Below are positions 1-44,298 of a stretch of 59,390 nucleotides of DNA, in pieces. The notes below the pieces were generated by a model, which saw nothing but the letters and a program-made list of their open reading frames with translations, ran no database searches and was not told the DNA's origin. The stretch is from a bacterium (GTDB taxonomy: Bacteria; CAIJMQ01; JAADFP01), in NCBI GenBank assembly GCA_027021085.1, contig JALUVB010000053.1:1-59390 (forward strand), in the 5' to 3' direction. Position numbers and translations under genes: made by a program. Numbering within the stretch: position 1 is the stretch's first letter; the number at the start of each line of letters is the position of its first letter.

Positions 1-166
1 TAGCCTCAAGGCGAATTTTGCCCCTTAAATTGATTAGTTTTTCCAGACGCTTACGCCTTATGAAGTCATATAGAGCCTTGTTAACTGCTTCGGTCTTCGT
101 CCTGGCCTTGGTCAGCTCAATAACTTTCTTTAAAGCCTCCTCGGATATGTTTAAAGTGGTGCGCAT
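1..166 (-). CDS. VapB/DUF2191-like ribbon-helix-helix antitoxin; its 3' end runs off the window
   Basis: Hand translation of the minus strand from ATG (164-166) gives MRTTLNISEEALKKVIELTKARTKTEAVNKALYDFIRRKRLEKLINLRGKIRLEA... It has the same N-terminal pattern as the VapB-like ORF at 8974-9177. A G6 Shine-Dalgarno-like run lies 3 nt upstream. It is absent from the ORF track because it is open at the window edge. Confidence 0.55.
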   Translation of the reverse strand, partial: MRTTLNISEEALKKVIELTKARTKTEAVNKALYDFIRRKRLEKLINLRGKIRLEA

Positions 167-198
167 TTTCCCCCCTTTTTGCATACAATTCCGATGAT

Positions 199-227
199 AT
201 TATATGATTACAGCAGGCATCTGTCAA
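199..227 (-). promoter_or_regulatory. Consensus sigma70 promoter for the antitoxin gene
   Basis: The minus strand reads TTGACA (222-227), a 17-nt spacer, then TATAAT (199-204). This sits about 33 nt upstream of the ATG at 166. Confidence 0.6.
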
Positions 228-283
228 TTCTACAAGCTGCATCAGGGAAAATCTTCTCGAAATAGGGAGATAGAGCTACACTT

Positions 284-440
284 TTCACTTAACGGCTGGC
301 GGGGGATGGGAAGTCCGAGCGAAGCGAGAATTTGGGCGGAGCGATAGCGAAGTCGGATATGCACCTGTTAAGTGAGTGCGATAGTACCGAGCACCACAAA
401 GGTGGTGCGAAGAGTCGGGGGCAAAGGGCCACTTTAATAG
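284..440 (+). repeat. GC-rich structured element, copy A (attC-like or ncRNA-like)
   Basis: It shares ordered blocks with copy B: TTTCACTTAACGGC, TTTGGGYGRAG, GCGATAG, hairpin+GAAGAGT, CCACTTTAATA. ACTTAAC (287-293) and GTTAAGT (367-373) are exact reverse complements. A hairpin forms between 391-397 and 402-408. It is a GC-rich island in AT-rich surroundings and starts about 20 nt after the stop of the 587-aa ORF. Confidence 0.6.
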
Positions 441-459
441 ATCACATACTCGTTTTGTG

Positions 460-2223
460 TCAGTAATCTAATACCCTATAAAGATCCAAACGAGAAAAAT
501 TTAATTTCGATTTTCCACTTCTTTTCAACTCATTGAGGAGAATGTTTACTATATCTTTGATATCAAATATTTCGATATTAAGGTTAGCATAATGATTTTT
601 TATCTTATCGAAAGATTTTCTAATATATTCTATTTTTTCTATGTTTTTAATAAAATTAATACAGTAAAATATCTTATGAATCCTCTTTTTGCTACATAGT
701 TCTATTTCGTTCCAAATTTTCTTCATTTCATCAGATTCTATCTTTGCGTTTTTTAGGAATATAGCACATTTGCTTTTTATGTGAACATCAATATCCGGTT
801 TATCCCTTTCAAGCGTATCGTTGAGCTTAATATCATCTTTTTTCCTTACCAATTTGATGCACTCTAATAACTCTCTAAAATTTGGAGGGGTCTTATCATC
901 AATTAAACCGCATTCAAAAAATTCCTGACATAACTCATGGATGAAATATTCGGAGAAATTACCCGCAAAAGACGAGGTCATAATTTTTAAAGTATAATCC
1001 TTCTCATCCTGCATTTCATATTTAAAAAGGCTTTCCAAGACTCGTAAAATGTCTGTAATTTGTTTAAATATGTCTCTTTCCCACTCTTGGGACAACGAAT
1101 CCCTTCTTTTAGTCGTCTCTATCTCTAATAAACAAATCTTTGCAAAGATATATAACAAAGTCCATTCCTCAGCGTAATATCTTAATAGGGATTCTGAGAG
1201 AGGCACATTTTCTTTGAAAGCCTTCATCACAAGAAAGGTTTTTATTTTATCCATTAATGACCAAGCTTTTAATATATCTTTATTGGAATAAGCTTCTTTA
1301 TAATACTTTGCAGTTAATTTATCTACTTCCTTCAATGTTACCAATAGTTTTATAGAATCTTCGTTTTGTTTCTCCTCTGGCAAGCTTCTAATGAATTTTT
1401 GAGCACTTTTTAACGATTTATCGGAATACTCTACTAATTCTTCTGTAATTTGATCTATTATTTTTTGAGCTTCTTGTTTTTTCTCATTCGATCTCTCAAA
1501 ATAGACAGATCTAACCAAAGAGTGAAGTTGTTTTTTTCTAAGTTTGTAAAGGGATTCATAGCATAAAGAAATCAGATAGGAATTTCTGGCAGGTATATTC
1601 TCTAAAATATTCAAAATTGATTTTATATGATCCTCTAAGGCTTCTATCTCACTTATATTCAGCTTCAAACTGTCTATTTTTTTCTTGTAATGGTTTTTTA
1701 CAAAAAGGGAAACAAGGATGTCAACAACATTAATGGGTTTCTCTGAACTAATCGACACGATTGATAAATATGTTTCTATAAAACTTATAAATTCACTCTC
1801 AGCAACATCGTAATCTATAAGCTCCCCTTTTTCACTAAGCTTTATCAATGCAACTTCGTACGTTCCCAACATCTTTTTAAAACTGTTACTTGGATACGGC
1901 TGAAGTTTATGTCTATCAAACAGTTTTGAGAGTGCCCTAATAATTAAACTCAATGACTTGGTTGGATCGTTAAGTAGATATTGGAACGACTTACTCCATA
2001 AATAATTGTGTTCTACATGCAGTAAGTTTATTTGGTCGTTTAGTTTTTCATATTTTTTTCTAATTTCCTCAAATTCACAATCTAATTGACGGAAAAGATC
2101 ACTCGATGGTATTTGAATCTTCTCTCGTAATATATACCTATTTATCTTCTGTTTAATACGATTGAATTCTTGCTCAATTTCAATGGGACTTTCTCTAATC
2201 CTGATTTTCATATCATTCATCAC
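460..2223 (-). CDS. Hypothetical 587-aa protein, K/E/I/L-rich and probably all-helical; no family recognised
   Basis: A long uninterrupted ORF in a very AT-rich region, where random stops would be frequent. It is co-oriented with and downstream of the R-M gene. There is no Walker motif or other clear motif. Confidence 0.7.
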   Translation of the reverse strand: MMNDMKIRIRESPIEIEQEFNRIKQKINRYILREKIQIPSSDLFRQLDCEFEEIRKKYEKLNDQINLLHVEHNYLWSKSFQYLLNDPTKSLSLIIRALSKLFDRHKLQPYPSNSFKKMLGTYEVALIKLSEKGELIDYDVAESEFISFIETYLSIVSISSEKPINVVDILVSLFVKNHYKKKIDSLKLNISEIEALEDHIKSILNILENIPARNSYLISLCYESLYKLRKKQLHSLVRSVYFERSNEKKQEAQKIIDQITEELVEYSDKSLKSAQKFIRSLPEEKQNEDSIKLLVTLKEVDKLTAKYYKEAYSNKDILKAWSLMDKIKTFLVMKAFKENVPLSESLLRYYAEEWTLLYIFAKICLLEIETTKRRDSLSQEWERDIFKQITDILRVLESLFKYEMQDEKDYTLKIMTSSFAGNFSEYFIHELCQEFFECGLIDDKTPPNFRELLECIKLVRKKDDIKLNDTLERDKPDIDVHIKSKCAIFLKNAKIESDEMKKIWNEIELCSKKRIHKIFYCINFIKNIEKIEYIRKSFDKIKNHYANLNIEIFDIKDIVNILLNELKRSGKSKLNFSRLDLYRVLDY

Positions 2224-2280
2224 TATTTAATTTCTTTTTCACATTTTTAATAATCCTTATATTTTACTTTGCCCCCGATT

Positions 2281-2425
2281 TCACTTAACGGCCAGCGGGT
2301 ATCTGAAATCGCCGAAGGCGTTTTGGGTGAGAGCTGAAAGCCCGAACCAGATACCCGCTTGTTAGCAGACCTGAAGGGCGAGCCTGCGATAGCAGGTGAA
2401 GAGTTCCGCACGCCGCCACTTAATA
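2281..2425 (+). repeat. GC-rich structured element, copy B
   Basis: Same block order as copy A. An 11-bp stem pairs GCGGGTATCTG (2295-2305) with CAGATACCCGC (2348-2358). A hairpin pairs CCTGC (2383-2387) with GCAGG (2392-2396), followed by GAAGAGT (2398-2404). It begins directly after the R-M stop codon at 2428-2430. The 62-aa track ORF at 2247-2435 is judged non-coding. Confidence 0.6.
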
Positions 2426-2427
2426 TA

Positions 2428-4758
2428 CTACTCACTATTATCTCCTCTCCTTAAAGGCAATTTTTTAATAAATTCTCTCATGTATTCCCAGTCCGGTTTT
2501 ACATTTTCATCAACAGGTAATTTTATTTTAGATTTTTCCATTCTTGCTTTAGTCCATTTTAAACCGTAATTGAATCTGTATCTTTCTTTTTCAATTATTG
2601 TTATTAAAAATAATGCTTTATAGACATCAAGATCGAAAGTCGGATACAACACATTTACATCATCTGAAGCCCAGAAAGGTCTAGACTGATAAAATGCTAT
2701 TCCCACAGAGCCATCATAATTAACAGTTATTACATTTTTCTCAAATATTGGATCACGTGCTATTTTTGCAGTTAATCCATTATTATACATGCTGGAGCCA
2801 ATAAATGGAGTATTCCCAGGATTCATGTCAAGTTTTATCAATCTTTTTCCTTTTTTGATTTCAAATAAACCACCGTCACCTCCTAATTTAAAATACTTCC
2901 AATTTTCAGTATTGAGCGGTAGGCATTTTTCATTTGAAAATTCTTTTAAGATATCGAGATTACCCTCTTTAATTTCAAAAGAAATGTAATCTAGAACTTT
3001 ATGCCTAAAATCATTACATGTTATTTTTGAATAATCTGTTTCCATGTATGGTTCAGCGCACCATATATCCTCAGCATTTACTGTTTTTAAAACACTCATC
3101 CCGGGTTTTTCTTCTCTATTTAGATACAGATTCAGAAATGTATCTTTTGTATGATTCCATCTGTTATGGTAATCTATTCTTCCTTTATTCTTTATTTTTA
3201 TAAACCCATCATCTTTAAGATATCCAAACCAAACTTTTTTATTCGGTGGATGGGGCTTATGGGCTGTTAGTACCAGTATCGCAGTAACAACCCCCACTGG
3301 GTAAAACAAATCATCTGGCATGCTTATTACTGCCTCTAAAGTATGCTTTTCTAATATTTTTTCTTTGAAATCTAGATATTCTCTTTTATCTAATACACAC
3401 CTCATTGGTACAATTGCTACACATTTCCCCCCATGTTCAAGCATATCTAAATTATTTAATACAAATTCAAATTCATTAATGTCATCTTTCTCTATTTTAT
3501 ATGGTGGGTTTAATAAACCTATATTTGGTTTAAATTTTTCTTTAATTTCATTAAAGATATTATCGAAACAACTGCCATGATATATGTTCGTTTTCCCATC
3601 CCCATGAACTATCATGTTTGTAATAGCAAGTGCATAAATATGGTCTTGATATTCTATACCTATAATCTGCTTCTCTTTTATGTGTTTTATTTTTTTACTA
3701 CTTTTTCTAGATTTTTCTATCATCTTTTTCATAGCACTGATAAGAAACCCACCTGTACCACAACAATTGTCCAAAACAACACTGTCTTTTGTAATTTCTG
3801 CCAAATCACAAAACAATTCAGTAATATGGGATGGAGTTAGGATTATACCTAATCTTTTATCACTATTTGCATATCTAAGAAACTCTATGTAAAATCTACC
3901 TAGGGCATCGTAATAATGATAGGTTTTTATAAATTTATTTAATTTATCATCAATATCATCTATAAGTTTTATCACAAACTCTTTATCTGTTGTTAGTGTT
4001 GTATGTGTTTTCATGAATGAAAACGCAATCTCCAAATTCTCAATCTTGTTAGAGGGTATATTTGATTTTTTCAATTCTCGAATAATCGTAGCAACGAGAA
4101 CATCTATAATCTCTTTAGCGGTATCATACTTTTTATAGCTTTCATGAAATGCCCTATTCCGTAAAGCAATCAAAATTCCACTAACTACCAGACTTCGTTG
4201 AGCTTCGGGTATTTTTTTAATATGAAGTGTTGTGTTCAGTTCTCCTGCAAAATCTAATAATTTTGATAAATCTTGACGGAATTTCATATCAGAATATAAA
4301 TAGGCATTAGAATAATCTTCAAAAGACAGAAGTTCATCTCCTAAAATCTTACTGGGGGTATTGGTGTCCTTAAGCCATAAATAATGGGTTATTTTAAGAT
4401 TTTCTTTCTTTTCACCGCTAACACCGATAGCCAAAACATCGTATTCTTTTGATAGATATGATGCATATAATAAAGCTCCATCAACTGCATACTCATCGTA
4501 CTTATCTCTAGATTCACTTTCGTGCTTTCTAATATCTGCTTTACACTCAATGACTATTAAAAAATCACTTCTCTTTTTTGATGTAACTATAAAATCTGGG
4601 GAACCCTTCCCTGTGCTTCTTTTAGATGCGTTTTTAAGTAATTTTTTTATTCTTGGATTGTCACTTGTTTGCTCCTCTACTATTATGTCATCATTTTCAT
4701 AGTATCCCAACTTTCTAAATTCATCCCTAACAATTTTTTCAGTTTTTCTTTCATTCAT
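2428..4758 (-). CDS. Single-chain type IIG-like restriction-modification enzyme: PD-(D/E)xK nuclease + N6-adenine methyltransferase + HsdS-like TRD
   Basis: The N-terminus has SPDFIV...LIVIECK (a PD..ExK motif). Methyltransferase motif I is DNCCGTGGF and motif IV is LLNPPYK. The C-terminal WKYFKLGG..LFEIKKGKR...TPFIGSSMYNNG resembles an HsdS target-recognition domain. A GGGAGG Shine-Dalgarno lies at 4766-4771. Confidence 0.85.
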   Translation of the reverse strand: MNERKTEKIVRDEFRKLGYYENDDIIVEEQTSDNPRIKKLLKNASKRSTGKGSPDFIVTSKKRSDFLIVIECKADIRKHESESRDKYDEYAVDGALLYASYLSKEYDVLAIGVSGEKKENLKITHYLWLKDTNTPSKILGDELLSFEDYSNAYLYSDMKFRQDLSKLLDFAGELNTTLHIKKIPEAQRSLVVSGILIALRNRAFHESYKKYDTAKEIIDVLVATIIRELKKSNIPSNKIENLEIAFSFMKTHTTLTTDKEFVIKLIDDIDDKLNKFIKTYHYYDALGRFYIEFLRYANSDKRLGIILTPSHITELFCDLAEITKDSVVLDNCCGTGGFLISAMKKMIEKSRKSSKKIKHIKEKQIIGIEYQDHIYALAITNMIVHGDGKTNIYHGSCFDNIFNEIKEKFKPNIGLLNPPYKIEKDDINEFEFVLNNLDMLEHGGKCVAIVPMRCVLDKREYLDFKEKILEKHTLEAVISMPDDLFYPVGVVTAILVLTAHKPHPPNKKVWFGYLKDDGFIKIKNKGRIDYHNRWNHTKDTFLNLYLNREEKPGMSVLKTVNAEDIWCAEPYMETDYSKITCNDFRHKVLDYISFEIKEGNLDILKEFSNEKCLPLNTENWKYFKLGGDGGLFEIKKGKRLIKLDMNPGNTPFIGSSMYNNGLTAKIARDPIFEKNVITVNYDGSVGIAFYQSRPFWASDDVNVLYPTFDLDVYKALFLITIIEKERYRFNYGLKWTKARMEKSKIKLPVDENVKPDWEYMREFIKKLPLRRGDNSE

Positions 4759-4787
4759 ATTTATTCCTCCCTAAGGCGGCGTGCAAA

Positions 4788-4880
4788 ATTTCACATAACT
4801 CGTTCATATACGCATAATTGCGTATATCCTTCCAAATCTGGGATATATGTGAAGTATTTCGTGTATACCCGCCTTTACAT
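4788..4880 (+). repeat. Shorter, degenerate copy C of the structured element
   Basis: TTTCACATAAC (compare TTTCACTTAAC), an internal 9-4-9 palindrome, GAAGTAT (4851-4857, compare GAAGAGT), a GC-rich arm, and TTTACAT (compare ACTTAAT). Similarity is patchy. Confidence 0.35.
4806..4827. promoter_or_regulatory. Perfect 9-4-9 palindrome ATATACGCA-TAAT-TGCGTATAT upstream of the R-M gene
   Basis: Exact inverted arms read from the sequence, 48-69 nt upstream of the R-M ATG (4758). It may be an operator or the stem of element copy C. Confidence 0.4.
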
Positions 4881-5005
4881 GAACTCATAGGTTTTCCTCT
4901 TTTGAAACCTGCCTGTCCGGACGGGTATTTAGCGGGCAAGTTCTGGGGAATTGTTTCAGGAAAATGTTTCATTCCAGTAGTAATATAGCAAATAAAAGCG
5001 ATAAG

Positions 5006-6115
5006 TCAAAGCGCATTCTTTAAAATCGTTTCTGTCTCATCCACCATTCTTGAAACATCGAAGTTCTCTTCTATCCATCTTTTGCCCTTTTCCCCCATTT
5101 CTCTCGCTTCTTCCGGGTGATTTAGCAGGTAGGTTATGGCTTTTGCTAAAGCCTGTGAATTTTTGGCAGGCACCAGAACTCCTGTCTCTTTATTCCTTAC
5201 TACTTCGGGAATACCGCCTACATTCGTAGCTACCACGGGAATACCCACGCCGGAAGCCTCCATAACCGAACGGGGAAGGCCTTCGGATAAGGAAGGATGG
5301 ACAAAAAGGTCAAGAATTTGCAGGATATTTCCCACCTCGGCTACTTTCCCGGTAAAGATGAAATTTCCCCTCACCCTTAACTCATTTGCCAATTCTTCCA
5401 GTTCCCTCCGCAGATTTCCCTCCCCCACCATTACAAAGCGTGTCTCCGGGAAAGCTTTCAGCACCTCCACGGAGGCCTCGATTAAATACCTATATCCTTT
5501 CAAAGCTATCAAATGCCCTACAGAGCCGATAACTTTTGCCCCTTCCGGGATACCCAGCTCTTTTTTCACTACGTCTCTTTCAGAGGAGACTTTCAGCCTG
5601 CTTAAATCCACACCGTTTAGAATAGTTACTACTCTCTCCGGGTTGATTCTCAACTCTTGCAGGATATGCCCTCGCAAAGCCTCAGAAAGGGTAATTATTT
5701 TATGGGGTATTTTTTTCAATATTCGGTTATATTTCCACAAGGGAAAATTCATTTTCCTGTTTCCCAGCTTATCCTTGTTTATATAGGCATGAATGGTACT
5801 TACAATAAGGGACGTTCCCGCCTTTTTTGCCGCAATAAGCCCGGGGACATCTCCGTCCCTATTATGGGTATGCACCACATCAAAACGCTCCTCCCTGATT
5901 AAATCAACAAGTTCCCTTATAGCTTTTCTTTTTTCTCTCAACTCCAGAGTATAAACCTCAAGCCCATTCTTCTTATAAGCTTCCGCCAGGGAACCGGGCC
6001 TGCATATAACCTTTACTTTATGGCCTCTATTTTGCAAGCCAAGGCTCAGTATCCGGGTATGCTCCTGGGAGCCTCCCCCGGTGTCTTTGGAAGAAATTAT
6101 TTGCAGGATTTTCAT
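5006..6115 (-). CDS. Glycosyltransferase family 4 (GT-B fold)
   Basis: C-terminal Glycos_transf_1 signature ...PSLSEGLPRSVMEASGVGIPVVATNVGGIPEVV... Confidence 0.85.
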   Translation of the reverse strand: MKILQIISSKDTGGGSQEHTRILSLGLQNRGHKVKVICRPGSLAEAYKKNGLEVYTLELREKRKAIRELVDLIREERFDVVHTHNRDGDVPGLIAAKKAGTSLIVSTIHAYINKDKLGNRKMNFPLWKYNRILKKIPHKIITLSEALRGHILQELRINPERVVTILNGVDLSRLKVSSERDVVKKELGIPEGAKVIGSVGHLIALKGYRYLIEASVEVLKAFPETRFVMVGEGNLRRELEELANELRVRGNFIFTGKVAEVGNILQILDLFVHPSLSEGLPRSVMEASGVGIPVVATNVGGIPEVVRNKETGVLVPAKNSQALAKAITYLLNHPEEAREMGEKGKRWIEENFDVSRMVDETETILKNAL

Positions 6116-6116
6116 T

Positions 6117-7400
6117 TCATATATACCTTTCGGGTAAAGCTAAAAGCACAAATTTTATTATCAATTCTTTTATTTCTTCAGGATACGCCTGCATCTTGTC
6201 TAAACTATGCAGTAGTTTTCGGGGGATTCTGCATGTGCGGGGCAAGTATTCCAGGGAAAGGGGATTTTCCTTCTTGAGTTTGCGGGTAGGAAAATTTAAC
6301 TCCAGCAGGTAATTTTCTCCCTCTTCTTTTACCTTGTAGATAGGATTTATATACCACTTGGTACGGGGGAGCAAAAGGTTTTCCCGCAGATGAGTATACT
6401 TCTTATTAAAGTACTTTTCGCTTTTGCTAATCAACATATTGACAACGTTGGAACGGTTGATTTCCTCTGCCCCGTATTCCTTCTCCAGATCTAATACGCC
6501 TTCCTGCAAAAAATTCTTCAGGACATCCTCCTCCGGCAACATCTTTATCTGCCAGACAGGAGAAGGAAACATGTCTCTGTACTCCCGGGGAGATAAGGGC
6601 ATTCCTGCACTGTAGTTGGAGCCCAGGGCGTTATGAAGGTGCAGGAGAAGGATAATGCCCTGCGCACTTACTATCTCCTGGAAGCTGTTTACCACGATAT
6701 TTTTATGTTCTATACAATGCAGACAATCCATGGCAATAACCTTCTCAAAACTTTCTTTCTTAAAAGGGAGGGGAACAATATCGTTGGAACAGACCATCTC
6801 TGAATCCGGAGCAAGATACTTCCTGGCCAGATAAAGGTAGAAAGGCTGTGAATCAACACAAACTATTTTGCCCGGGGAAATAAAGTGAGACAAGACATAA
6901 GCAGAATGTCCCAGTCCCGAGGCAAAATCCAGCACATATCCCCTGGTATCAGTGAGCAGGGGCAGAGCCGCATAAATATTCCAGAAAGTCTGGGTGGAGA
7001 AACGATGCCTGACATTATGCATTGCCCCCAGCCCAAAATGCTGGGAAAGAGAAAAAAAGCTTAATTCTTTTTTCGCCTTTTTCTGGGCGCGGTAGCCCCT
7101 TAACGCAGCCCGCACCCGGCTCATGCGATGAATCTTTGCCGTGGATTTTAAGAATAGCCAGGAACAGAAATCCCTGCTGGCAATACCCTTGAACATTTTT
7201 TTGCAAAAATGAGCATGCAGCAGGAGGGAACGCCAGGGTTCAATAATGAACAAAATCCCGTTTACAATGGGATACTTCCGGCATTGGCACCGCAATACTC
7301 CATCCTGAATATTGTCTTCTCTTCCCCTCACTATGCGAGCAATTTCCATCCCTCCCCTGCAATAGGGACAGGCTAAGAGAGATAAAAATTCTTTCTTCAT
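6117..7400 (-). CDS. Class I SAM-dependent methyltransferase with an N-terminal Trm112-like zinc ribbon
   Basis: N-terminal CPYC...CQC Cys pairs, and SAM motif I VLDFASGLGHSA. Confidence 0.7.
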   Translation of the reverse strand: MKKEFLSLLACPYCRGGMEIARIVRGREDNIQDGVLRCQCRKYPIVNGILFIIEPWRSLLLHAHFCKKMFKGIASRDFCSWLFLKSTAKIHRMSRVRAALRGYRAQKKAKKELSFFSLSQHFGLGAMHNVRHRFSTQTFWNIYAALPLLTDTRGYVLDFASGLGHSAYVLSHFISPGKIVCVDSQPFYLYLARKYLAPDSEMVCSNDIVPLPFKKESFEKVIAMDCLHCIEHKNIVVNSFQEIVSAQGIILLLHLHNALGSNYSAGMPLSPREYRDMFPSPVWQIKMLPEEDVLKNFLQEGVLDLEKEYGAEEINRSNVVNMLISKSEKYFNKKYTHLRENLLLPRTKWYINPIYKVKEEGENYLLELNFPTRKLKKENPLSLEYLPRTCRIPRKLLHSLDKMQAYPEEIKELIIKFVLLALPERYI

Positions 7401-8572
7401 TTTCCTGCTTTTTCCTCTGTAAGAAGTTTTTCATAGATACTGCAGATTTTTTCCCCGTTTTTACGCCAGGTATACTCCTTTTCTACTTTACTTCTGCCTC
7501 TCTGCCCCATTTCTTTCCCCAGGATTTTGCTGCCTGCTAACTTAATTATACATTCCTGCAGCTGATTTTTGTTTCCCTGTTCTATCAGAAAACCTTCTCT
7601 GCCATCGGAAATAATTTCTTCTAACTGGCCTATGCGGGGAGCTATTACAGGCTTTCCCATAGCCATGTACTCGAAAATCTTTATGGGCGAGGAATAGATA
7701 TCAGTGCCGGGAAGAACTGTTATATCCATGGCAGCTATATAGTAAGGGACCTCCTGGTAAGGCACATTCCCGGTGAAAGTAACTACCCCGTTCAGCTTTT
7801 TCTTAACCGCGTATTCTTTTAAAGAGGCAAGGCTTGCTGCTCCGCCCACAATAAGGAAATGCACCCTGGGTTCTTTTCGAACCACCTCCCTGGCCACAGA
7901 GAGCAGCAAGTCCACTCTGTGCCAGTGTCCTATGGTTCCCACAAAGCCTACAACAATCCTGTCCTGCAAATTATATTTTTCTCTTATCTTTTCCCCGGAA
8001 ATACCCGGGTGGAATTTATCCACATCCACACCATCAGGATTCACCCACACTCTTTCTTTATTTCCTCCGTTACCCAGCACATATTCTTCCAGCTCCCTGG
8101 TGGTAAGAATTATCCCGCGGGTGGAAGAAAAAATCCTGTTTTCTATGGATTTTGCCAGCCAGGGAAACTTAATTCTCCTCTTCGGCCCCCAGCGAAGGGG
8201 AGCATTCACCTCCAGGAGATGGGGGAGGCGAAACTTCCTGGCCAGTTTAATCCCGGCAAAACCGAATAGTTCGTATCTTTCATAAATGAAATCGGGCTTT
8301 TCTTTCCTGAAGATTTTCCCTGCTTCCTTATAAAACCTCCGATTGGTAATAATCTTCCTGAAATCCGAGCCCAGGAGTTTTGCGGTCAAAGGCTTTACCT
8401 CATATATGGGAAGGGGGAAATCCACGGGATAATTACCTCTGTTGCTGGTAACAATAAACACCTCATTCCCCAATTCCTGCAAAGCAAGACAAACTTCTCT
8501 TACATGCACCGAGGAGCCCTTGTTACCCAGGACAGGAATGCCGGTATCCGTGGAGAGATAAGCTATTTTCAT
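7397..8572 (-). CDS. Glycosyltransferase family 4
   Basis: N-terminal GT4 pattern KIAYLSTDTGIPVLGNKGSSVHVRE, and a C-terminal E..MAMGKPVIAPRIG block. Confidence 0.8.
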   Translation of the reverse strand: MKIAYLSTDTGIPVLGNKGSSVHVREVCLALQELGNEVFIVTSNRGNYPVDFPLPIYEVKPLTAKLLGSDFRKIITNRRFYKEAGKIFRKEKPDFIYERYELFGFAGIKLARKFRLPHLLEVNAPLRWGPKRRIKFPWLAKSIENRIFSSTRGIILTTRELEEYVLGNGGNKERVWVNPDGVDVDKFHPGISGEKIREKYNLQDRIVVGFVGTIGHWHRVDLLLSVAREVVRKEPRVHFLIVGGAASLASLKEYAVKKKLNGVVTFTGNVPYQEVPYYIAAMDITVLPGTDIYSSPIKIFEYMAMGKPVIAPRIGQLEEIISDGREGFLIEQGNKNQLQECIIKLAGSKILGKEMGQRGRSKVEKEYTWRKNGEKICSIYEKLLTEEKAGK

Positions 8573-8585
8573 AAGAAACCGCTAC

Positions 8586-8981
8586 CTATACCAACCTCAA
8601 TTGAGAATGCTGGGATATTACTTCAAAGTGTGCATCTTTATGTAAGACAGCCCAATCATTTTCTATGGCAATGGTAGCTATCAAAATATCTGTAGATGGT
8701 ATCTTTATCCCTTTTCTATATAAAGAGAATGCGAGACGAGAGGCTTTCAACCAATAAAATTCTTCTGTGGGCAAGTAATGCAGTCCTTCAAATTTTCTGA
8801 GGAGGGATTGGTACTCTTTCTCACTTTTTGTTCCCTGAAGCAATTCAAGCACAATAATACCCGTTATAGCAACCCTGTTTTTATCCAGGTATGTTATCAA
8901 TTTATTTTTGATTTCTTTGCACCCTCGCCTTGAGAAAGCGCATATCCAAGCAGAAGTATCTACAATTACTAACTCATTCAT
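8586..8981 (-). CDS. vapC: PIN-domain toxin VapC
   Basis: 131 aa. The N-terminus is LVIVDTSAWI with the conserved Asp, followed by later acidic residues (ELLQG, STDILIA). It overlaps the upstream antitoxin gene by 8 nt. Confidence 0.85.
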   Translation of the reverse strand: MNELVIVDTSAWICAFSRRGCKEIKNKLITYLDKNRVAITGIIVLELLQGTKSEKEYQSLLRKFEGLHYLPTEEFYWLKASRLAFSLYRKGIKIPSTDILIATIAIENDWAVLHKDAHFEVISQHSQLRLV

Positions 8982-9177
8982 TATTTCTTATTTTCTCAAG
9001 CTCTTTTAAGGTGAGAGGAAAGTCATAGCTCCCAATCATATTTTTTAACTCTTCTCTCCTTTTCATCTTTATATACTCTTCCATTGCTTTTGTAATGGCA
9101 CCCTTCTTTGTCTTCTCTTTACTTATCTTCAATACTTCTTTCATTAAGTTCTCATCTATTTCAATCAAAGTCCGCAT
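8974..9177 (-). CDS. vapB: VapB-type (DUF2191-like) antitoxin
   Basis: 67 aa, beginning MRTLIEIDENLMKEVLK... It lies immediately upstream of, and overlaps, the PIN toxin gene. Confidence 0.8.
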   Translation of the reverse strand: MRTLIEIDENLMKEVLKISKEKTKKGAITKAMEEYIKMKRREELKNMIGSYDFPLTLKELEKIRNNE

Positions 9178-9238
9178 AATACCCCTCCTTCTCTATATAT
9201 AAATACCAGGATTTATATATATGTCAACCCCTCTTTAT

Positions 9239-9257
9239 TTACACCCCGGGGGTGTAA
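9239..9257. repeat. 19-nt palindrome TTACACCCCGGGGGTGTAA, copy 1
   Basis: Identical 19-mer to 17384-17402. It lies in the intergenic gap between the radical SAM stop and the vapB promoter region. Confidence 0.7.
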
Positions 9258-9278
9258 TGTTCGGAGAAAAGACCATTA

Positions 9279-23150: not shown

Positions 23151-23509
23151 TACAGGTTTGACACCAAATATACAGGAAGAAACGAAAATACAACAGCAAC
23201 AAAAACAGGGTTGTGAGTCATCCCCGATGTCCATCGGGCTCGACGTATGTCGGGGCGCCTATTCCCCCATGTTAGACTATAGACATCAGACTTTAGACAT
23301 TAGACGGGAAAGACACATGATATGGGGAACCAACTCACCATTCACTGCTCACTACCTCCCAGTCTATAGTCCAAGAGTTGTGAGTTGTTAGTTGCGAGTT
23401 GTTAGTTCCACCTGTGCCCCCGCCTGTATTTTGCCTTCTGGATCTCCCCTTTCCCAGTCTACAGTCTATGGTCTAAGGTCTATGGTCTAAAGTCTAAAAT
23501 TCTCCTTTC
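23151..23509. repeat. Mosaic intergenic repeat region R1 (heptamer-tandem modules)
   Basis: Tandem heptamers GAGTTGT and GTCTAWR, including the 146-bp unit at 23355-23500 that is shared with 24288-24412 and 43980-44103. Confidence 0.8.
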
Positions 23510-23989
23510 TCACTGCTTTTTTGTCCACTTCCTTCCCACTTCACGCCACTGCTCACCGAAGCGCTTGAATTCTACCCGGAGCAAATAACCCGGGTAAAGC
23601 CCGAATATGTTAAGGTAAGCCCGTTTAGCCGCAGGATCCACCCTTCTGAAAACTACTATTTTACTCCTTGTATCTCCCGGCTTCAGGTTTCCTATCCAGA
23701 TAAATTTTTCTTTTATTCCCAGCTTGTCACTTATATCCTTTCTGAGCCAGGGGGCAGGGTGAGGACGATACTTCTTGCCCGTATCAGTGGTCAGGGTAAA
23801 AGCTTCTCCCACCTTTACAGGTTTTCTCCCTGCATTGCGGAACCTTACTATGAAAACGCTATAGACCTTATCATTAAAAAGACCCTCTGCTTTGTAATTA
23901 GGATAAAAATCTATTTTTATCTGGAGGTCCGCCCCCAGGAGTTGTGCAAACAGTACCCCCAAAAACAGAATCAACCACCACTTTCTCAT
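23510..23989 (-). CDS. Hypothetical secreted protein
   Basis: Signal peptide MRKWWLILFLGVLFAQLLGA. I recognise no family. Confidence 0.6.
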   Translation of the reverse strand: MRKWWLILFLGVLFAQLLGADLQIKIDFYPNYKAEGLFNDKVYSVFIVRFRNAGRKPVKVGEAFTLTTDTGKKYRPHPAPWLRKDISDKLGIKEKFIWIGNLKPGDTRSKIVVFRRVDPAAKRAYLNIFGLYPGYLLRVEFKRFGEQWREVGRKWTKKQ

Positions 23990-24049
23990 AGTTTAAGTTT
24001 ATCATAAGGAAGCTTCAGAAAGAAGTTCGGGGGGGAAGCTAACCGGGCG

Positions 24050-24450
24050 AGGTGAATCCTGTATCCTGCATTTCCTCTTCCAGTCTAATGTCTATAGTCT
24101 GAAGTCTATGGTCTATGTGCTCTCCTGGATGCCTGCTTTCGCAGGCATGACAGGTAGGGCTGGTTTCTTGTCATTCTTGCAAATCCTAACCTCCTTCAAA
24201 AGCTATCCCAGGATACCAGGATTACCAAGATACCGGGATACTAGGAAACCGATTCACTGTTCACTGTTTACTATTTACTGCTCACCACCTCCCAGTCTAT
24301 AGTCCAAGAGTTGTGAGTTGTTAGTTGCGAGTTGCCAGTTCCACCTGCTTCTCCGCCTTTATCCTGCTTCTCCCGGTCTATAGTCTAAGGTCTATGGTCT
24401 AAAGTCTAAAATATCCCCCTCGCTACTCGCTACCCGCTACCTTCTCAGCA
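24050..24450. repeat. Mosaic intergenic repeat region R2
   Basis: Modules in order: GTCTAWR heptamers; hairpin ATGCCTGC-TTTC-GCAGGCAT (24129-24148); CTTGTCATTCTTGCAAATCCTAACC...; a GGATACC-type 8-9-mer run; RTTYACT heptamers; GAGTTGY heptamers; GTCTAWR heptamers; CYCGCTA heptamers. Confidence 0.85.
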
Positions 24451-33512: not shown

Positions 33513-33811
33513 CTACCCATCCATCTAAAGTCTATGCTCTAAGGTCCACCCCTCGCTACCCGCTACTAACTACTCACTACCGTCTACTCGCTACTGTTTA
33601 CTATTCACTGTTTACTATTTCCCCAGTCTATAGTCTAAAGTCTAAGGTCTATAGTCTATGTGCTCTCCTGGATGCCTGCTTTCGCAGGCATGACAGGTGG
33701 GCAGGATACCAACTCCCTGCTTACTGTCCCTTGTTCTGTATCTTTTATCCTGCATCCCCCTCTCCCAGTCTAAGGTCTACAGTCTATAGTCTAAAGTCTA
33801 TGGTCTAACAT
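33513..33811. repeat. Mosaic intergenic repeat region R3
   Basis: A tract of about 70 nt with uninterrupted 7-nt periodicity (CTCGCTA CCCGCTA CTAACTA CTCACTA CCGTCTA CTCGCTA CTGTTTA CTATTCA ...), GTCTAWR heptamers, and the hairpin at 33672-33691. Confidence 0.85.
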
Positions 33812-35032
33812 CTAACTTCCCAGCAGCCCTTTTATCTTCTCGGCCAGCGCCCTGTCCAATCTTACTCTAATCTGTACCCCCTTCTCCTGTGGTAACTCAT
33901 TTAACACTTCTCCATGCTGATAAACCTCGGGTAACAAGAAAAGCTTATCCTGGGGCAGAAAAACATCTAATTCCTCCCTGGAATCCTTGAGTGTATCCAC
34001 TATTCTTGCTTTCAACTCCTCCAGGCCTTCGCCAGTAAGAGAGCTTACCAGAACAGATTCCGGGTATTCCCGCTGTAGTCTCCTCTTTTCCCAGGGATTG
34101 AGAAGGTCAACCTTATTAAAAATTTCTACCAGAGGCTTATCCAGAACACCCAGTTCCCCCAGTAATTTTTTAACGGTTTTTATCATCTCCTCTTTCTCCG
34201 CGCTGGAGGCATCAACTACATGCAGCAGAAAAGTGGCATTGACTGTCTCTTCCAGGGTGGCTTTGAAAGAAGCCAGGAGTTCTGTGGGAAGACGACGGAT
34301 AAAACCGACTGTATCGGTAAGTATGACCATCTGGTGGTTGGAAAGATACAATTTTCTCATGCGTGTATCCAGAGTCATGAACAGCTTATTGCCAGCCGGG
34401 AGGTGGGAGCGGGTAAGTGCATTGATAAGGCTGGTCTTCCCGGCATTGGTATATCCCACAATTGCTCCCAGGGGTAAACCGAATTTTCTCCTTCTTCTGC
34501 CGATATTCTCCCGGTGGCGGAGCAGCTTAGCCAGTTTTTTCTCCAGCCTTTTAATCTTTACCTGGATTTTCCTGCGGTCATACTCTAACTGTCTTTCCCC
34601 CGGTCCACGCGTGCCAATGCCGCCTCCCAGGCGGGATAGTTCTTTGCCCTTGCCGGTAAGCCGGGGGAGAAGGTACTTGAGTTGCGCCAGCTCCACTTCT
34701 ATTTTGCCTTCTTCCGTATGGGCATGCTGGGCAAATATATCCATGATAAGCTGAGTACGGTCAATAACCCTTTCCCCGATTATTTTTTCCAGGTTCCGCT
34801 GTTGTACAGGATGGAGTTCCATGTCAAATACCACAAGGTTCGCTCCCTTTTCCACTACGCAGCGGTGAATTTCTTCCGCCTGCCCTTCCCCTACGAAAAG
34901 CGAGGGGGTAATTCTTTCCATCCTTAGAGGAATCACCTCCAGTACTTCCCCCCCTGCTGTAGCTGCAAGGCCTCTCAGCTCTTCCAGGGAGGTTTTTTCT
35001 CTTTTATCCCCTACTAATACTACCTTTTCCAT
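33812..35032 (-). CDS. hflX: GTPase HflX
   Basis: GGGIGTRGPGE, plus the G1 motif GYTNAGKTSL and the G3 motif DTVGF. Confidence 0.9.
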   Translation of the reverse strand: MEKVVLVGDKREKTSLEELRGLAATAGGEVLEVIPLRMERITPSLFVGEGQAEEIHRCVVEKGANLVVFDMELHPVQQRNLEKIIGERVIDRTQLIMDIFAQHAHTEEGKIEVELAQLKYLLPRLTGKGKELSRLGGGIGTRGPGERQLEYDRRKIQVKIKRLEKKLAKLLRHRENIGRRRRKFGLPLGAIVGYTNAGKTSLINALTRSHLPAGNKLFMTLDTRMRKLYLSNHQMVILTDTVGFIRRLPTELLASFKATLEETVNATFLLHVVDASSAEKEEMIKTVKKLLGELGVLDKPLVEIFNKVDLLNPWEKRRLQREYPESVLVSSLTGEGLEELKARIVDTLKDSREELDVFLPQDKLFLLPEVYQHGEVLNELPQEKGVQIRVRLDRALAEKIKGLLGS

Positions 35033-40240: not shown

Positions 40241-40951
40241 ATGTTTATAATTCCGGCAATTGATATCTGGCAAGGGAAACTGGTGAGACTGTTTCAGGGT
40301 TCTTACCAGAAGCCCAGCTTCTATCCGCTCACTCCTCTCCAGGCAGCGCGGAAGTGGCGTGAAAAAGGATTCAAAAGACTTCATATCGTGGACCTGGAAG
40401 GGGCACGGGCTGGCAGACCCGTGGAAAAAGAGCTTATTATAGAAGCGGCTCGCCAGTTTCAGGGGGAAGTGGAAGTGGGAGGTGGAATCAGGAAAGAAGA
40501 AGAGGCAAAATTTTACCTGGAGAATGGTATTTCCTACGTGATTCTGGGCACAAAAGGGCTGGAGAAGGCATTTCTCGTCTCGCTGGTAGAAAAATTCCCC
40601 CACAGAATTATCGTCTCCCTTGATATCTCCGGAAAAAAGATAAAGGTGGAAGGCTGGGAAAAGGAAGCAGAAGAAACTCTTGCGGAAACACTCTCTTTCC
40701 TGTCTTCTTTACCCCTGCAGGCTCTCATTGTCACGGATATCAAAAGAGACGGCACAATGGAAGGCATCTCCGGGCAGACTTTCCTGCAGGTAGCTAAACA
40801 TACTTCCCTTCCCCTTATAGTAGGAGGAGGGGTCTCCTCACTGCAGGATATCAACTGGATAAAAGAGCATCTCCCCGAAGTTAAGGGAGTAATTGTGGGA
40901 AAGGCTATGTACGAGGGAGATTTACTTAAGGAAATAAAGGAAAATGGCTGA
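40241..40951 (+). CDS. hisA: ProFAR isomerase HisA
   Basis: MFIIPAIDIWQGKLVRL...VGGGIR. I take the ATG at 40241 in preference to the upstream TTG at 40226. Confidence 0.85.
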   Translation: MFIIPAIDIWQGKLVRLFQGSYQKPSFYPLTPLQAARKWREKGFKRLHIVDLEGARAGRPVEKELIIEAARQFQGEVEVGGGIRKEEEAKFYLENGISYVILGTKGLEKAFLVSLVEKFPHRIIVSLDISGKKIKVEGWEKEAEETLAETLSFLSSLPLQALIVTDIKRDGTMEGISGQTFLQVAKHTSLPLIVGGGVSSLQDINWIKEHLPEVKGVIVGKAMYEGDLLKEIKENG

Positions 40952-43788: not shown

Positions 43789-44298
43789 ATAATAGACTTT
43801 AGACCATAGACTATAGACTGTAGACTGGGAGATAGTGAACAGTAAATAGTAAACAGTAAGCAGTGAACAGTGAATCGGTTTCCTGGTATCCCGGTATCTT
43901 AGTATCCTGGTATCCTGCCCACCTGTCATGCCCGCCTGCTCCCGGAGGGCGGGCAGGCCTGCGAAAGCAGGCATCCAGGATTTTAGACTTTAGACCATAG
44001 ACCTTAGACTATAGACTGGGAGAAGCAGGATAAAGGCGGAGGAGCAGGTGGAACTGGCAACTCGCAACTAACAACTCACAACTCTTGGACTATAGACTGG
44101 GAGATAGTGAGCTGTAAATAGTAAGCAGTGAACGGTAGTGAGTAGCGAGTAGATAGTAGCGGGTAGTTAGGGGAAATATGAGAGAGGTGTGGGGTGATAG
44201 GCAGAACTGGCCACTCCGGACTCCCGAGATATATCGGGACTCACAACTCTGAAATCAGTAAGCAAGAATTGGAAGTTGAGAGGAGAGTTTTGCAAGGA
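43789..44298. repeat. Mosaic intergenic repeat region R4
   Basis: Reverse-orientation copies of the GTCTAWR, RTTYACT, GGATACC, GAGTTGY and CGCTAC modules. It contains IR arm 43909-43988 and the 124-bp unit at 43980-44103. Confidence 0.85.
43909..43988 (-). repeat. Left arm of a perfect 80-bp inverted repeat
   Basis: A base-by-base comparison shows it is the exact reverse complement of 45742-45821. The track ORFs 43651-43974(-) and 45756-45989(+) share the same first 22 aa (MPAFAGLPALREQAGMTGGQDT), which confirms this. Confidence 0.9.

What the first reader, a model, noticed from the sequence alone, without database searches (positions are those of the whole stretch)
284..4935. Conserved GC-rich structured element alternating with AT-rich ORFs: an attC-like gene-cassette architecture with no integrase in view
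Two full copies lie in one orientation: A (284-440) and B (2281-2425). There is also a shorter degenerate copy C (about 4788-4880) and possibly a remnant at about 4915-4935. Copies A and B each lie directly 3' of a minus-strand ORF (stop codons at 460-462 and 2428-2430); copy C instead lies upstream of the R-M gene, in the gap below the glycosyltransferase at 5006.

A and B share the same ordered sequence blocks: TTTCACTTAACGGC at the 5' end, TTTGGG(C/T)G(G/A)AG, GCGATAG, a hairpin followed by GAAGAGT, and CCACTT(T)AATA at the 3' end. The helices between the blocks differ in sequence but remain self-complementary:
- A: GCACCAC 391-397 / GTGGTGC 402-408.
- B: CCTGC 2383-2387 / GCAGG 2392-2396.
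- B: GCGGGTATCTG 2295-2305 / CAGATACCCGC 2348-2358.
- C: the 9-4-9 palindrome at 4806-4827.
This points to selection on structure rather than coding. The elements are GC-rich islands inside the most AT-rich DNA of the window.

In A, ACTTAAC (287-293) and GTTAAGT (367-373) are exact reverse complements about 80 nt apart. They fit the integron attC core consensus RYYYAAC...GTTRRRY. B has ACTTAAC (2283-2289) and GTTAGCA (2361-2367).

Tandem units of unrelated AT-rich cargo, each followed by a 3' structured site, with a promoter-bearing antitoxin gene as the next unit, is how integron cassette arrays and CALINs look. However, the unpaired-spacer geometry in B (5 vs 2 nt) and the conserved extension of about 65 nt beyond the heptamer pair are not canonical. 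This may therefore be a different recombination system or an RNA system.
Basis: partly seen in the sequence, partly recalled or inferred. Interest (0 to 1): 0.85.

Follow-up and report, generated by a model that had tools for sequence, protein, structure and literature searches.

The report
Integron-like cassette array, non-canonical sites
The repeated GC-rich elements are folded-DNA recombination sites separating mobile gene cassettes (a restriction enzyme, an unknown gene, a toxin-antitoxin pair) in an integron-like gene-capture system that uses a different recombinase and a different site from classical integrons, occurs in many archaea and some bacteria, and was not found described in the searchable literature.

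Summary
A (282-426) and B (2278-2417) are homologous structured elements. "C" is not a degenerate copy: it is a cassette end (4775-4798) joined to a conserved attI-like site (4799-4869).

A covariance model of the 93-nt core found about 157 copies in 80 loci, mostly archaeal MAGs plus a few bacteria. Copies in a locus always share one strand, at a median spacing of 1258 bp. Of the ORFs inside arrays, 115 of 124 lie on the opposite strand.

Covariation is strong (93.7% of cells paired; 17 of 24 pairs with double changes). Fixed G·T pairs show that the strand opposite the genes is the one that folds.

Four independent tests place a crossover at TTTCACTTAA|CGG, which is G|TT on the gene strand:
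- an outer helix split between neighbouring copies;
- R-box bases that pair with the neighbour's box (82%) rather than their own (49%);
- a natural cassette presence/absence polymorphism;
- shared cassettes whose homology ends at ...TAAC.

In related loci a tyrosine recombinase sits just upstream of the attI-like site. It resembles XerA and IntI, lacks the IntI-specific insertion, and carries an extra N-terminal domain. The window has the site but no such gene.

A proxy model of canonical attC sites and Rfam both miss the element. Verdict: an integron-like platform that is a new variant of a known kind. The strand-exchange mechanism is inferred, not shown.

The parts
1..292 (-). Partial cassette 0. 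It holds vapB (1-166, cut by the contig end) with its own sigma-70 promoter (227-199, 12 of 12 matches). It ends at the crossover in element A.
   Evidence: ORF translation. PF09957 VapB_antitoxin, followed by an unannotated 92-aa ORF (cut at the contig end), on the overlapping contig L045. Promoter scan. The window is a whole contig.
282..376 (+). Element A core. It comprises the R-box pair CACTTAAC (286-293) / GTTAAGTG (367-374), the long L helix and a junction with two hairpins. The inferred crossover is between 292 and 293 (AA|C).
   Evidence: R1 hit of 49.9 bits. Folds. Crossover by homology.
377..426 (+). Extension of element A. It holds the hairpin GCACCAC/GTGGTGC (391-408), GAAGAGT (409-415) and the 3' strand of outer helix P1 (415-426, TCGGGGGCAAAG).
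   Evidence: Direct reading. Complement of 2267-2278. The reconstituted site folds at -32.8 versus -24.7 kcal/mol.
293..2288 (-). Cassette 1 (1996 bp). It comprises the A core and extension, a 586/587-aa ORF of unknown function (460-2223), the P1 5' strand (2267-2278) and TTTCACTTAA (2279-2288).
   Evidence: No Pfam hit on record, and only a weak PADLOC hit.
2278..2370 (+). Element B core. The inferred crossover is between 2288 and 2289. The L helix is GCGGGTATCTG (2295-2305) / CAGATACCCGC (2348-2358).
   Evidence: R1 hit of 94.7 bits. Folds.
2371..2417 (+). Extension of element B. It holds the hairpins CCTGAAGG and CCTGC-GATA-GCAGG, GAAGAGT, and the P1 3' strand (2408-2417, GCACGCCGCC).
   Evidence: Direct reading. 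Complement of 4775-4784. About 90% identical to the extension of the L021 element.
2289..4798 (-). Cassette 2 (2510 bp). It comprises the B core and extension, a type IIG restriction-methyltransferase gene (2428-4758), the P1 5' strand (4775-4784) and AAAATTTCACATAA (4785-4798). Only 40 nt lie between the crossover and the ATG, so the cassette has no room for its own promoter.
   Evidence: PADLOC REase_MTase_IIG, 536 bits. Pfam N6_Mtase plus Methylase_S. Fold of -40.8 versus -29.2 kcal/mol.
4799..4869 (-). attI-like array-start site. On the gene strand it reads GGTATACACGAAATACTTCACATATATCC - CAGATTTGGAA - GGATATACGCAATTATGCGTATATG - AACGAG|TTATGTGAAAT. Palindrome 2 is at about 4806-4829 and palindrome 1 at 4841-4869.
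   Evidence: The same architecture lies directly 3' of the integrase stop codon in L016, L062, L172, L174, L177, L178 and L180. CGTATATGAACGAG|TTATGYGAAAT is nearly identical in L172.
4870..5005 (.). The place where related loci carry the integrase gene. Here there are only about 135 nt before the glycosyltransferase stop codon, with a promoter-like site (5009-4982, minus strand) facing the array.
   Evidence: tblastn with the integrases finds no remnant here. Promoter scan, which is weak evidence.

Best explanation
Window 1-4869 is the proximal end of an integron-like gene-capture array.

**Anatomy.** Each cassette carries one ORF or operon on the minus strand. At its 3' end lies a structured recombination site of about 135-145 nt, counted from the AA|C crossover to the end of the outer helix. 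The strand that folds is the one opposite the genes (window + strand). The fold has these parts:
- an R-box helix, (T)CACTTAAC / GTTARNNG;
- an asymmetric internal loop;
- an L helix of about 11 bp;
- a junction with conserved single-stranded GAAGT / ATTTGGGYGAG / CGAAC and two small hairpins capped by C(GNA)G-type loops;
- one or two further hairpins;
- GAAGAGT;
- an outer helix, P1.

**Proposed mechanism.** A dedicated tyrosine recombinase cuts and exchanges the folded strand at TTTCACTTAA|CGG, which is G|TT on the gene strand. It recombines site with site to excise a cassette as a circle. It recombines the site with a double-stranded attI-like site (two imperfect palindromes followed by AACGAG|TTATGYGAAAT) to insert a cassette at the head of the array. 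The recombinase is related to XerA and IntI, has no IntI-specific insertion, and has an extra N-terminal domain of about 70 aa.

**Consequence of the crossover position.** Everything 5' of the crossover on the folded strand belongs to the neighbouring cassette. This includes the variable R-box bases and the P1 5' strand. P1 therefore forms over about 140 nt only in the excised circle.

**State of this window.** The array is integrase-less: the attI-like site is intact but the recombinase gene next to it is missing. The cassettes are therefore either frozen or moved in trans. The cargo is AT-rich, horizontally acquired defence and addiction genes (a type IIG restriction-modification enzyme, vapB with the unannotated ORF that follows it, and one unknown gene) in an uncultured bacterium.

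**Shown:** the structure and its strand; the array organisation; the position of the crossover; cassette mobility in nature; the linkage to the recombinase and the attI-like site.

**Inferred by analogy with integrons:** single-strand (bottom-strand) exchange; circular intermediates; which protein catalyses the reaction; the role of the N-terminal domain.
For: 1. Family and structure. R1 finds 157 matches in 80 sources. On 140 distinct sequences, 93.7% of cells are paired, against 27-45% when partners are slid. Double changes occur in 17 of 24 pairs. The covariation score is 0.414 against 0.146, with 0 of 500 shuffles reaching it.
2. Strand. Two pairs are G·T in 128 and 131 of 140 sequences, which would be C·A on the other strand.
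3. Arrays. There are 154 elements in 77 loci, no locus with mixed strands, and a median spacing of 1258 bp. Inside arrays 115 ORFs lie on the opposite strand and 9 on the same strand.
4. Crossover inside the element.
   - (a) For P1, 23 of 74 adjacent pairs have at least 9 nt of exact complement, against 6 of 550 random pairs and 4 of 145 own pairs. In 20 of these 23 pairs the 5' strand directly abuts ATTTCAC.
   - (b) The variable R-box bases of element i+1 pair with the 3' box of element i in 82% of cells, against 49% with their own box and 52% at random. Fisher tests give 1.5e-12 and 1.4e-19.
   - (c) L174 and L175 carry a 145-aa cassette that L176 lacks. The junctions are AACTTG|TTATGAT (empty), AACTTG|TTGTATG and GCGAACG|TTATGAT.
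   - (d) In L063/L150, L081/L166 and L066/L078 the same cassette sits once next to an element core and once next to an attI-like palindrome. Homology ends right after ...TAAC.
5. Recombinase.
   - It lies upstream of the attI-like site in L016 and L062.
   - Starting from three homologues chosen only for contig length, arrays of R1 elements were found downstream, co-oriented genes and all, in L172, L174/L175 and L177.
   - Three further homologues sit at contig ends 90-730 nt after the stop codon. An attI-like site is readable after the stop in two of them, L178 and L180; the L179 tail shows none.
6. The reconstituted circular sites of the window fold 8-12 kcal/mol better than the linear arrangement.
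7. The closest solved structures are VchIntIA and XerA.
Against: - No experiment has been done, and no circular junction reads were examined.
- Single-strand exchange is inferred only. G·T asymmetry and covariation would equally fit an RNA.
- P1 is detectable as an exact run in only about a third of adjacent pairs.
- The window itself has no integrase of this family. Its only tyrosine recombinase (42892-43788) is an ordinary XerC/D-type gene next to topA.
- The integrase is co-oriented with the cassettes, unlike most integrons.
- Part of the apparent invariance of TTCACTTAACGG comes from the search pattern used to collect loci.
- The alignment used for the covariation counts was fitted to the model.
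Confidence: 0.8

Rival explanations
1. A canonical integron remnant (CALIN). The elements would be ordinary attC sites used by a classical IntI encoded elsewhere.
For: The R-box bases fit RYYYAAC / GTTRRRY. The crossover is G|TT. The cassette logic, the bottom-strand fold and the defence and toxin-antitoxin cargo all fit. The closest solved structure of the linked recombinase is VchIntIA.
Against: - A covariance model built from nine published archaeal attCs plus attCaadA7 gives no significant hit. Element A scores 7.2 bits, E about 10.
- There are no extrahelical bases in the L helix. The internal loop is 5 versus 2 nt. The junction sequence is conserved across phyla, and there is an extra extension of about 50 nt plus P1.
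- The linked recombinase scores below the TIGR02249 cutoff (230 versus 265). It has about 20 aa where VchIntIA has about 60 aa, at the position of the IntI-specific insertion.
- None of the supplementary attC sequences of PMC9668308 contains the motifs.
Confidence: 0.07
2. A structured non-coding RNA transcribed from the + strand, antisense to the cassette genes. It would have a regulatory, defence or guide function, and the array organisation would be secondary.
For: Covariation is strong and the G·U pairs are strand-specific. The loops are purine-rich and the junction nucleotides are conserved, as in ribozymes or riboswitches.
Against: - No Rfam family matches, even at E up to 10.
- Cassette boundaries fall inside the element.
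- P1 makes sense only on a circular DNA.
- No promoter is evident upstream on the folded strand.
- The loops are mostly C(GNA)G and GCGNAGC, which are known as very stable DNA mini-hairpins (own knowledge; loop counts).
- The element is tied to a recombinase and an attI-like site.
Confidence: 0.06
3. Modules moved by the host's housekeeping Xer recombinase, like the pdif modules of Acinetobacter plasmids or IMEX elements.
For: The linked recombinase passes NCBIfam's XerA model (237.6 bits against a cutoff of 220). The window encodes a XerC/D-type protein.
Against: - The sites are structured elements of about 135-145 nt, not 28-bp dif-like duplex sites.
- All copies are direct, not alternately inverted.
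- The dedicated recombinase has an extra N-terminal domain and a fixed position next to the array.
Confidence: 0.04
4. A selfish dispersed repeat (REP/BIME, MITE or IS200/IS605-type palindromic element) that happened to accumulate between genes.
For: It is a hairpin-rich, GC-rich intergenic repeat, and assemblies break at it.
Against: - The window contig holds only the two array copies, and copies within a locus are spaced like an array (median 1258 bp).
- All copies in a locus share one strand, and gene polarity is 115 to 9.
- There are no terminal inverted repeats or target duplications of the element itself.
- No Y1 transposase was seen among the neighbouring families that were listed, although the Pfam summary shows only 25 of 128 families.
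Confidence: 0.03

Closest known systems
Integrons (IntI, attI, attC cassette arrays), including sedentary chromosomal integrons and CALINs
   Same: - A tyrosine recombinase sits next to an attI-type site at the head of an array.
- The cassettes are mostly promoterless and in one orientation, each ending in a site that folds on the strand opposite the genes.
- The crossover is G|TT (AA|C on the folded strand).
- The bases 3' of the crossover belong to the next cassette.
- Toxin-antitoxin cassettes carry their own promoter.
- The cargo is defence and restriction-modification genes.
- Integrase-less arrays exist.
   Different: - The site is about 135-145 nt, with a junction of two hairpins, junction motifs conserved across phyla, extra hairpins and an outer helix.
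- There are no extrahelical bases.
- The site is not detected by a canonical-attC model.
- The recombinase lacks the IntI-specific insertion, has an N-terminal domain of about 70 aa, and is co-oriented with the cassettes.
- The attI-like site is made of two imperfect palindromes.
- The cassettes are larger (median spacing 1258 bp, often whole restriction-modification operons).
Archaeal integrons of Ghaly et al. 2022 (PMC9668308)
   Same: Cassette arrays in archaeal MAGs (Thermoplasmatota, Methanobacteriota, Aenigmatarchaeota and others), carrying restriction-modification and toxin-antitoxin cargo, with cross-domain distribution.
   Different: Their attCs are canonical (for example GCCTAAC-AAATC-...-GTTAGGC), and their six IntIs carry the IntI-specific domain. 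None of their listed sequences contains CACTTAACGG or ATTTGGGYG.
XerA / XerC-XerD dif recombination, and pdif or IMEX modules
   Same: The recombinase is a simple tyrosine recombinase. It is closest in sequence to XerA and IntI and passes NCBIfam NF040815.
   Different: There is no 28-bp dif-type duplex site. The recombinase has an extra N-terminal domain. It has a dedicated position next to a variable array. The sites are structured, strand-asymmetric and in direct orientation.

Membership tests
Integron (sensu IntegronFinder / Mazel) | An integron integrase carrying the IntI-specific additional domain around patch III | tested here: not met
   In the window there is no integrase next to the array. 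The linked recombinases in related loci score 230 and 196 bits on TIGR02249 against a cutoff of 265, split into two stretches. VchIntIA residues 171-230 correspond to only about 20 residues.
Integron (sensu IntegronFinder / Mazel) | attC sites recognised by an attC covariance model (R''-L''...L'-R' with extrahelical bases) | tested here: not met
   The proxy model R2 (nine archaeal attCs from PMC9668308 Data S9 plus attCaadA7) gives no hit with default filters. With filters off, the best hit on element A is 7.2 bits, E about 10. IntegronFinder's own model was not available.
Integron (sensu IntegronFinder / Mazel) | Crossover at G|TT of GTTRRRY, with the last six bases belonging to the next cassette | tested here: met
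   Presence/absence polymorphism in L174 versus L176. Breakpoints after ...TAAC in three cassette pairs. R-box bases pair with the neighbour in 82% of cells against 49% with their own box.
Integron (sensu IntegronFinder / Mazel) | Tandem cassettes in one orientation, each ORF followed by its site, spaced less than 4 kb apart | tested here: met
   77 loci, none with mixed strands, median spacing 1258 bp; 115 versus 9 ORFs by strand. In the window the copies are about 2.0 and 2.5 kb apart.
Integron (sensu IntegronFinder / Mazel) | An attI site adjacent to the integrase gene, where cassettes insert | tested here: inconclusive
   A conserved attI-like site lies 3' of the recombinase gene in seven related loci, and it is the insertion point in L174 versus L176. 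The window has the site (4799-4869) but no integrase. The site's sequence architecture differs from attI1.
Integron (sensu IntegronFinder / Mazel) | Recombination of the folded bottom strand as single-stranded DNA | not testable with these tools
   Indirect evidence only: fixed G·T pairs on the strand opposite the genes, and DNA-type GNA loops.
Rfam structured RNA families | A match to a curated covariance model | tested here: not met
   Only tRNAs reach the gathering thresholds. Nothing falls on the elements at E up to 10.
Xer/dif-type modules (pdif, IMEX) | 28-bp dif-like duplex sites (11-6-11), alternately inverted, acted on by the housekeeping Xer recombinase | tested here: not met
   The sites are structured elements of about 135-145 nt in direct orientation. 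The recombinase passes the XerA model but has an extra N-terminal domain and a dedicated position.

The most novel reading that the evidence does not exclude
A second lineage of integron-type gene-capture platforms, not found described in the searchable literature. It would have its own clade of XerA/IntI-like recombinases (with an N-terminal extra domain and no IntI insertion). It would have its own folded-DNA site of about 135-145 nt (R/L helices, a junction with two hairpins, and an outer helix that closes only in the excised circle). It is spread across many archaeal phyla and some bacteria, and its cargo is mainly restriction-modification and other defence cassettes.
Probability: 0.5. Interest if true: 0.85.

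Novelty: new variant of a known kind. Interest (0 to 1): 0.8.

Why it matters
**If confirmed**
- Integron-style cassette capture is not restricted to IntI and canonical attC. A sister recombinase clade would use a much more elaborate folded site, and it operates in both Archaea and Bacteria.
- The hypervariable restriction-modification and defence islands next to genes annotated 'XerA / integron integrase' in archaeal MAGs would be explained. So would the assembly breaks seen there.
- There would be a route for cross-domain exchange of defence genes.
- Integron-finding software would gain a new class of site to look for.

**Open questions this makes testable**
- How a tyrosine recombinase reads a branched single-stranded DNA.
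- What the outer helix and the N-terminal domain do.

**Practical use**
- A new structure-specific recombinase and site pair may be useful for DNA engineering.

Tried and rejected
- **Rfam.** No family matches the elements at gathering thresholds or at E up to 10.
- **Canonical attC.** The proxy covariance model gave no significant hit, with default filters or with filters off.
- **Viral contigs.** Four pattern hits, none confirmed by R1, so there is no evidence of a viral carrier.
- **Integrase near the window array.** tblastn with four recombinase queries finds only a XerC/D-type gene 38 kb away, plus weak similarity that is really the attI-like DNA.
- **Pfam summary of 73 neighbouring ORFs.** Uninformative for rare families, because only 25 of 128 families are listed. 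The recombinase was found instead by all-against-all clustering.
- **Extending the contig to the left.** The window is the whole contig. L045 adds only about 330 nt of the ORF downstream of vapB.
- **Small ORF at 4751-4972 as a host gene whose 3' end was the target.** Rejected. The similarity to L037 and L021 is at the DNA level, and the indels are not multiples of three.
- **tRNA/tmRNA-type island insertion, retron, IS200/IS605 or TnpB RNA, CRISPR.** None fits the anatomy.
- **Literature.** Searches by motif strings and by concept found no description.
- **N-terminal domain of the recombinase.** The fold search of the full recombinase model returns only IntI, Xer and other integrase folds, so this domain could not be assigned.
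Full report
**1. What is in the window**

- Positions 1-4.9 kb are about 30% GC, against about 45% for the rest of the contig.
- Three minus-strand units lie there:
  - vapB (1-166, cut by the contig end), with a perfect sigma-70 promoter at 227-199;
  - a 586/587-aa ORF of unknown function (460-2223);
  - a type IIG restriction-methyltransferase gene (2428-4758; PADLOC 536 bits).
- Between them lie two GC-rich elements on the + strand, A (282-426) and B (2278-2417). They align with each other.
- No Rfam family matches them at gathering thresholds or at E up to 10.
- The window is a complete 59,390-bp contig.
- The host is an uncultured bacterium. Its TopA is only about 50% identical to the nearest named proteins, from Acidobacteriota and Thermodesulfobacteriota.

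**2. The element is a widespread, structured family**

- A gapped pattern scan of one genome per species returned 44 loci. Sixteen were true homologues:
  - archaeal MAGs of Thermoplasmata, Methanocellales, Alkanophaga, Baldrarchaeota, Aenigmatarchaeota, Methanobacteriota and Methanoxibalbensis, plus one labelled only 'uncultured archaeon';
  - a Parcubacteria MAG and a saline-lake bacterial MAG.
- Fifteen cores gave a consensus fold with 24 pairs, 13 of them with compensatory changes.
- The covariance model R1 and a metagenome scan raised the set to 157 matches in 80 sources.
- On 140 distinct sequences:
  - 93.7% of cells are paired, against 27-45% when partners are slid;
  - 17 of 24 pairs show double changes;
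  - the covariation score is 0.414 against 0.146, and 0 of 500 shuffles reach it.
- Caveat: that alignment was fitted to the model.
- Two pairs are G·T in 128 and 131 of 140 sequences. The folding strand is therefore the window + strand, opposite the genes.
- The terminal loops are mostly C(GAA)G, C(GTA)G, GCGNAGC and GCGATAGC. From my own knowledge these are the classic very stable DNA mini-hairpin motifs. This is suggestive of DNA folding, not proof.

**3. The elements form cassette arrays**

- No locus has copies on both strands (154 elements in 77 loci).
- The median spacing is 1258 bp, range 335-9276.
- Inside arrays 115 ORFs (36,119 aa) lie on the strand opposite the element, and 9 ORFs (1,080 aa) on the same strand.
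- The cargo includes GmrSD, HSDR_N/RAMA, methyltransferase/restriction-enzyme pairs, type IIG enzymes, HEPN/MNT and RHH toxin-antitoxin genes, a GNAT acetyltransferase, a ClpP-like SDH-type protease, an ABC-ATPase-like protein and others.
- None of the four viral-contig hits was a real element.

**4. The cassette boundary lies inside the element, at AA|C**

Four independent lines agree.

- **(a) A split outer helix.**
  - In the window, 415-426 (TCGGGGGCAAAG, the 3' end of A) is the exact complement of 2267-2278, just 5' of B.
  - 2408-2417 (the 3' end of B) is the exact complement of 4775-4784, just 5' of 'C'.
  - Across loci, 23 of 74 adjacent pairs have at least 9 nt of exact complement, against 6 of 550 random pairs and 4 of 145 own pairs.
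  - In 20 of these 23 pairs the 5' strand directly abuts ATTTCAC.
  - Joining each cassette's two ends in silico closes this helix. The DNA fold improves from -24.7 to -32.8 kcal/mol (cassette 1) and from -29.2 to -40.8 kcal/mol (cassette 2).
- **(b) The classical integron test.**
  - The variable R-box bases 5' of element i+1 pair with the 3' box of element i in 82% of cells.
  - They pair with their own 3' box in 49%, and with random partners in 52%. Fisher tests give 1.5e-12 and 1.4e-19.
- **(c) A natural polymorphism.**
  - L174 and L175 carry a 145-aa cassette plus element directly after the recombinase gene. L176 is the same locus in another sample and lacks it.
  - The junctions are AACTTG|TTATGAT (empty), AACTTG|TTGTATG and GCGAACG|TTATGAT.
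- **(d) Shared cassettes in different contexts.**
  - In L063/L150, L081/L166 and L066/L078 the same cassette is joined once to an element core and once to an attI-like palindrome.
  - Homology stops right after ...TAAC. L057/L118 behave alike, there between two different element cores.

In the window the crossovers are therefore at 292|293, 2288|2289 and 4798|4799. Cassette 1 is 293-2288 and cassette 2 is 2289-4798.

**5. 'Copy C' is the head of the array**

- Only 4775-4799 resembles the element.
- From 4799 onwards the gene strand reads: palindrome 1 - CAGATTTGGAA - palindrome 2 - AACGAG|TTATGTGAAAT.
- The same architecture follows the stop codon of a tyrosine-recombinase gene in L016, L062, L172, L174, L177, L178 and L180. 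The last 25 nt are almost identical in L172.
- In the window only about 135 nt separate this site from a glycosyltransferase gene, and tblastn finds no recombinase remnant.
- So the window holds an integrase-less array with an intact attI-like site.
- A promoter-like site at 5009-4982 faces the promoterless restriction-modification cassette, which has only 40 nt between the crossover and the ATG. This is weak evidence.

**6. The recombinase**

- Clustering of the neighbouring ORFs revealed a family of 349-364 aa at the attI end of the arrays in L016 and L062. The two are 58% identical to each other.
- NCBIfam results:
  - recomb_XerA_Arch, 237.6 bits against a cutoff of 220;
  - integron integrase TIGR02249, 230 bits against a cutoff of 265, split into two stretches.
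- The closest solved structures are VchIntIA (2a3v) and XerA.
- VchIntIA residues 171-230 have only about 20 counterparts in this family. From my own knowledge, that region holds the IntI-specific insertion.
- All catalytic residues are conserved (R, K, HxxR, H, Y). So is an N-terminal domain of about 70 aa, predicted as beta-beta-alpha-beta-beta-alpha-beta, with pLDDT about 88.
- The best 120 database clusters are mostly near full length (80-100% of the query covered). NCBI labels several of them 'site-specific tyrosine recombinase/integron integrase' in Thermoplasmatota, Euryarchaeota, Methanotrichaceae and an unclassified 'bacterium' MAG.
- A reciprocal test started from homologues chosen only for contig length:
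  - three of three loci with downstream sequence show co-oriented defence genes separated by R1 elements on the opposite strand;
  - three more contigs end 90-730 nt after the recombinase stop codon, and two of them (L178, L180) show an attI-like site after the stop.

**7. Mechanism**

- What is shown is listed under the best explanation.
- The catalytic scheme is inferred by analogy with integrons:
  - exchange on the folded bottom strand;
  - circular intermediates;
  - site x site excision and site x attI insertion;
  - resolution by replication.
- The P1 helix, and pairing between ATTT and GAGT of the conserved GAAGAGT, would form a duplex arm on the other side of the crossover. That arm would exist only in the excised circle. 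It might mark excised cassettes as substrates for insertion. This is speculation.

**8. Comparison and novelty**

- The system works like an integron, but it fails two defining membership tests: the IntI-specific domain and the canonical attC model.
- The published archaeal integrons have canonical attCs, and none of their listed sequences contains these motifs.
- A 2021 review of archaeal tyrosine recombinases and a tyrosine-recombinase classification paper do not describe such arrays.
- Motif and concept searches found nothing.
- The searchable library is incomplete, so prior description elsewhere cannot be excluded.
- I rate it a new variant of a known kind.

Noticed in passing
window 23270-24450, 33520-33840, 43790-44140, 45580-45950, 53020-53320: Intergenic modules of tandem 7/14/21-nt repeats (GTCTAWR..., ACTGTTT..., CGCTACY...). 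They are repeated at five or more places, next to a conserved hairpin CTGGATGCCTGCTTTCGCAGGCATGACAGG. They are unrelated to the cassette elements and their function is unknown.
   Followed up: partly
L021 437-640 (+): In a Parcubacteria MAG, the first 67 codons of a serine recombinase gene (AVYTRVSTENQ motif) run straight into an element. The far end of that array therefore truncates a recombinase gene. The same locus has an internally deleted copy of the tyrosine recombinase fused to the attI-like region (3615-4019).
   Followed up: partly
L172 9877-9962: A truncated element lies directly upstream of the recombinase gene. The part of it nearest the integrase gene (its 5' part on the folded strand, including the crossover box) is replaced by AT-rich promoter-like DNA, and cassette-like restriction-modification genes lie further upstream. 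Arrays may therefore flank the recombinase on both sides, or the recombinase module may itself have moved.
   Followed up: partly
L175 14030-17032 versus L174: The same array in a sister sample carries an extra block of three ORFs plus a DDE_Tnp_1 insertion sequence.
   Followed up: no
L046, L047, L178, L179, L180: Short-read assemblies break at or just after the elements. The two window cassettes are separate contigs of 2.0 and 2.45 kb in SRR8439019. Three recombinase-bearing contigs end 90-730 nt after the stop codon.
   Followed up: partly
window 427-436 and 2418-2426: ACTT(T)AATA follows the 3' strand of the outer helix in both A and B. TTAA-containing motifs occur at the same place in several other loci. 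Unexplained.
   Followed up: no
window 463-2220 (-): The 586-aa cassette protein has no Pfam family on record and only a 16-bit PADLOC hit to LeoA. It is a candidate new defence gene by context.
   Followed up: partly
window 40944-43788: topA followed by an ordinary 298-aa XerC/D-type recombinase, 35% identical to the array-linked recombinases and without their N-terminal domain.
   Followed up: yes
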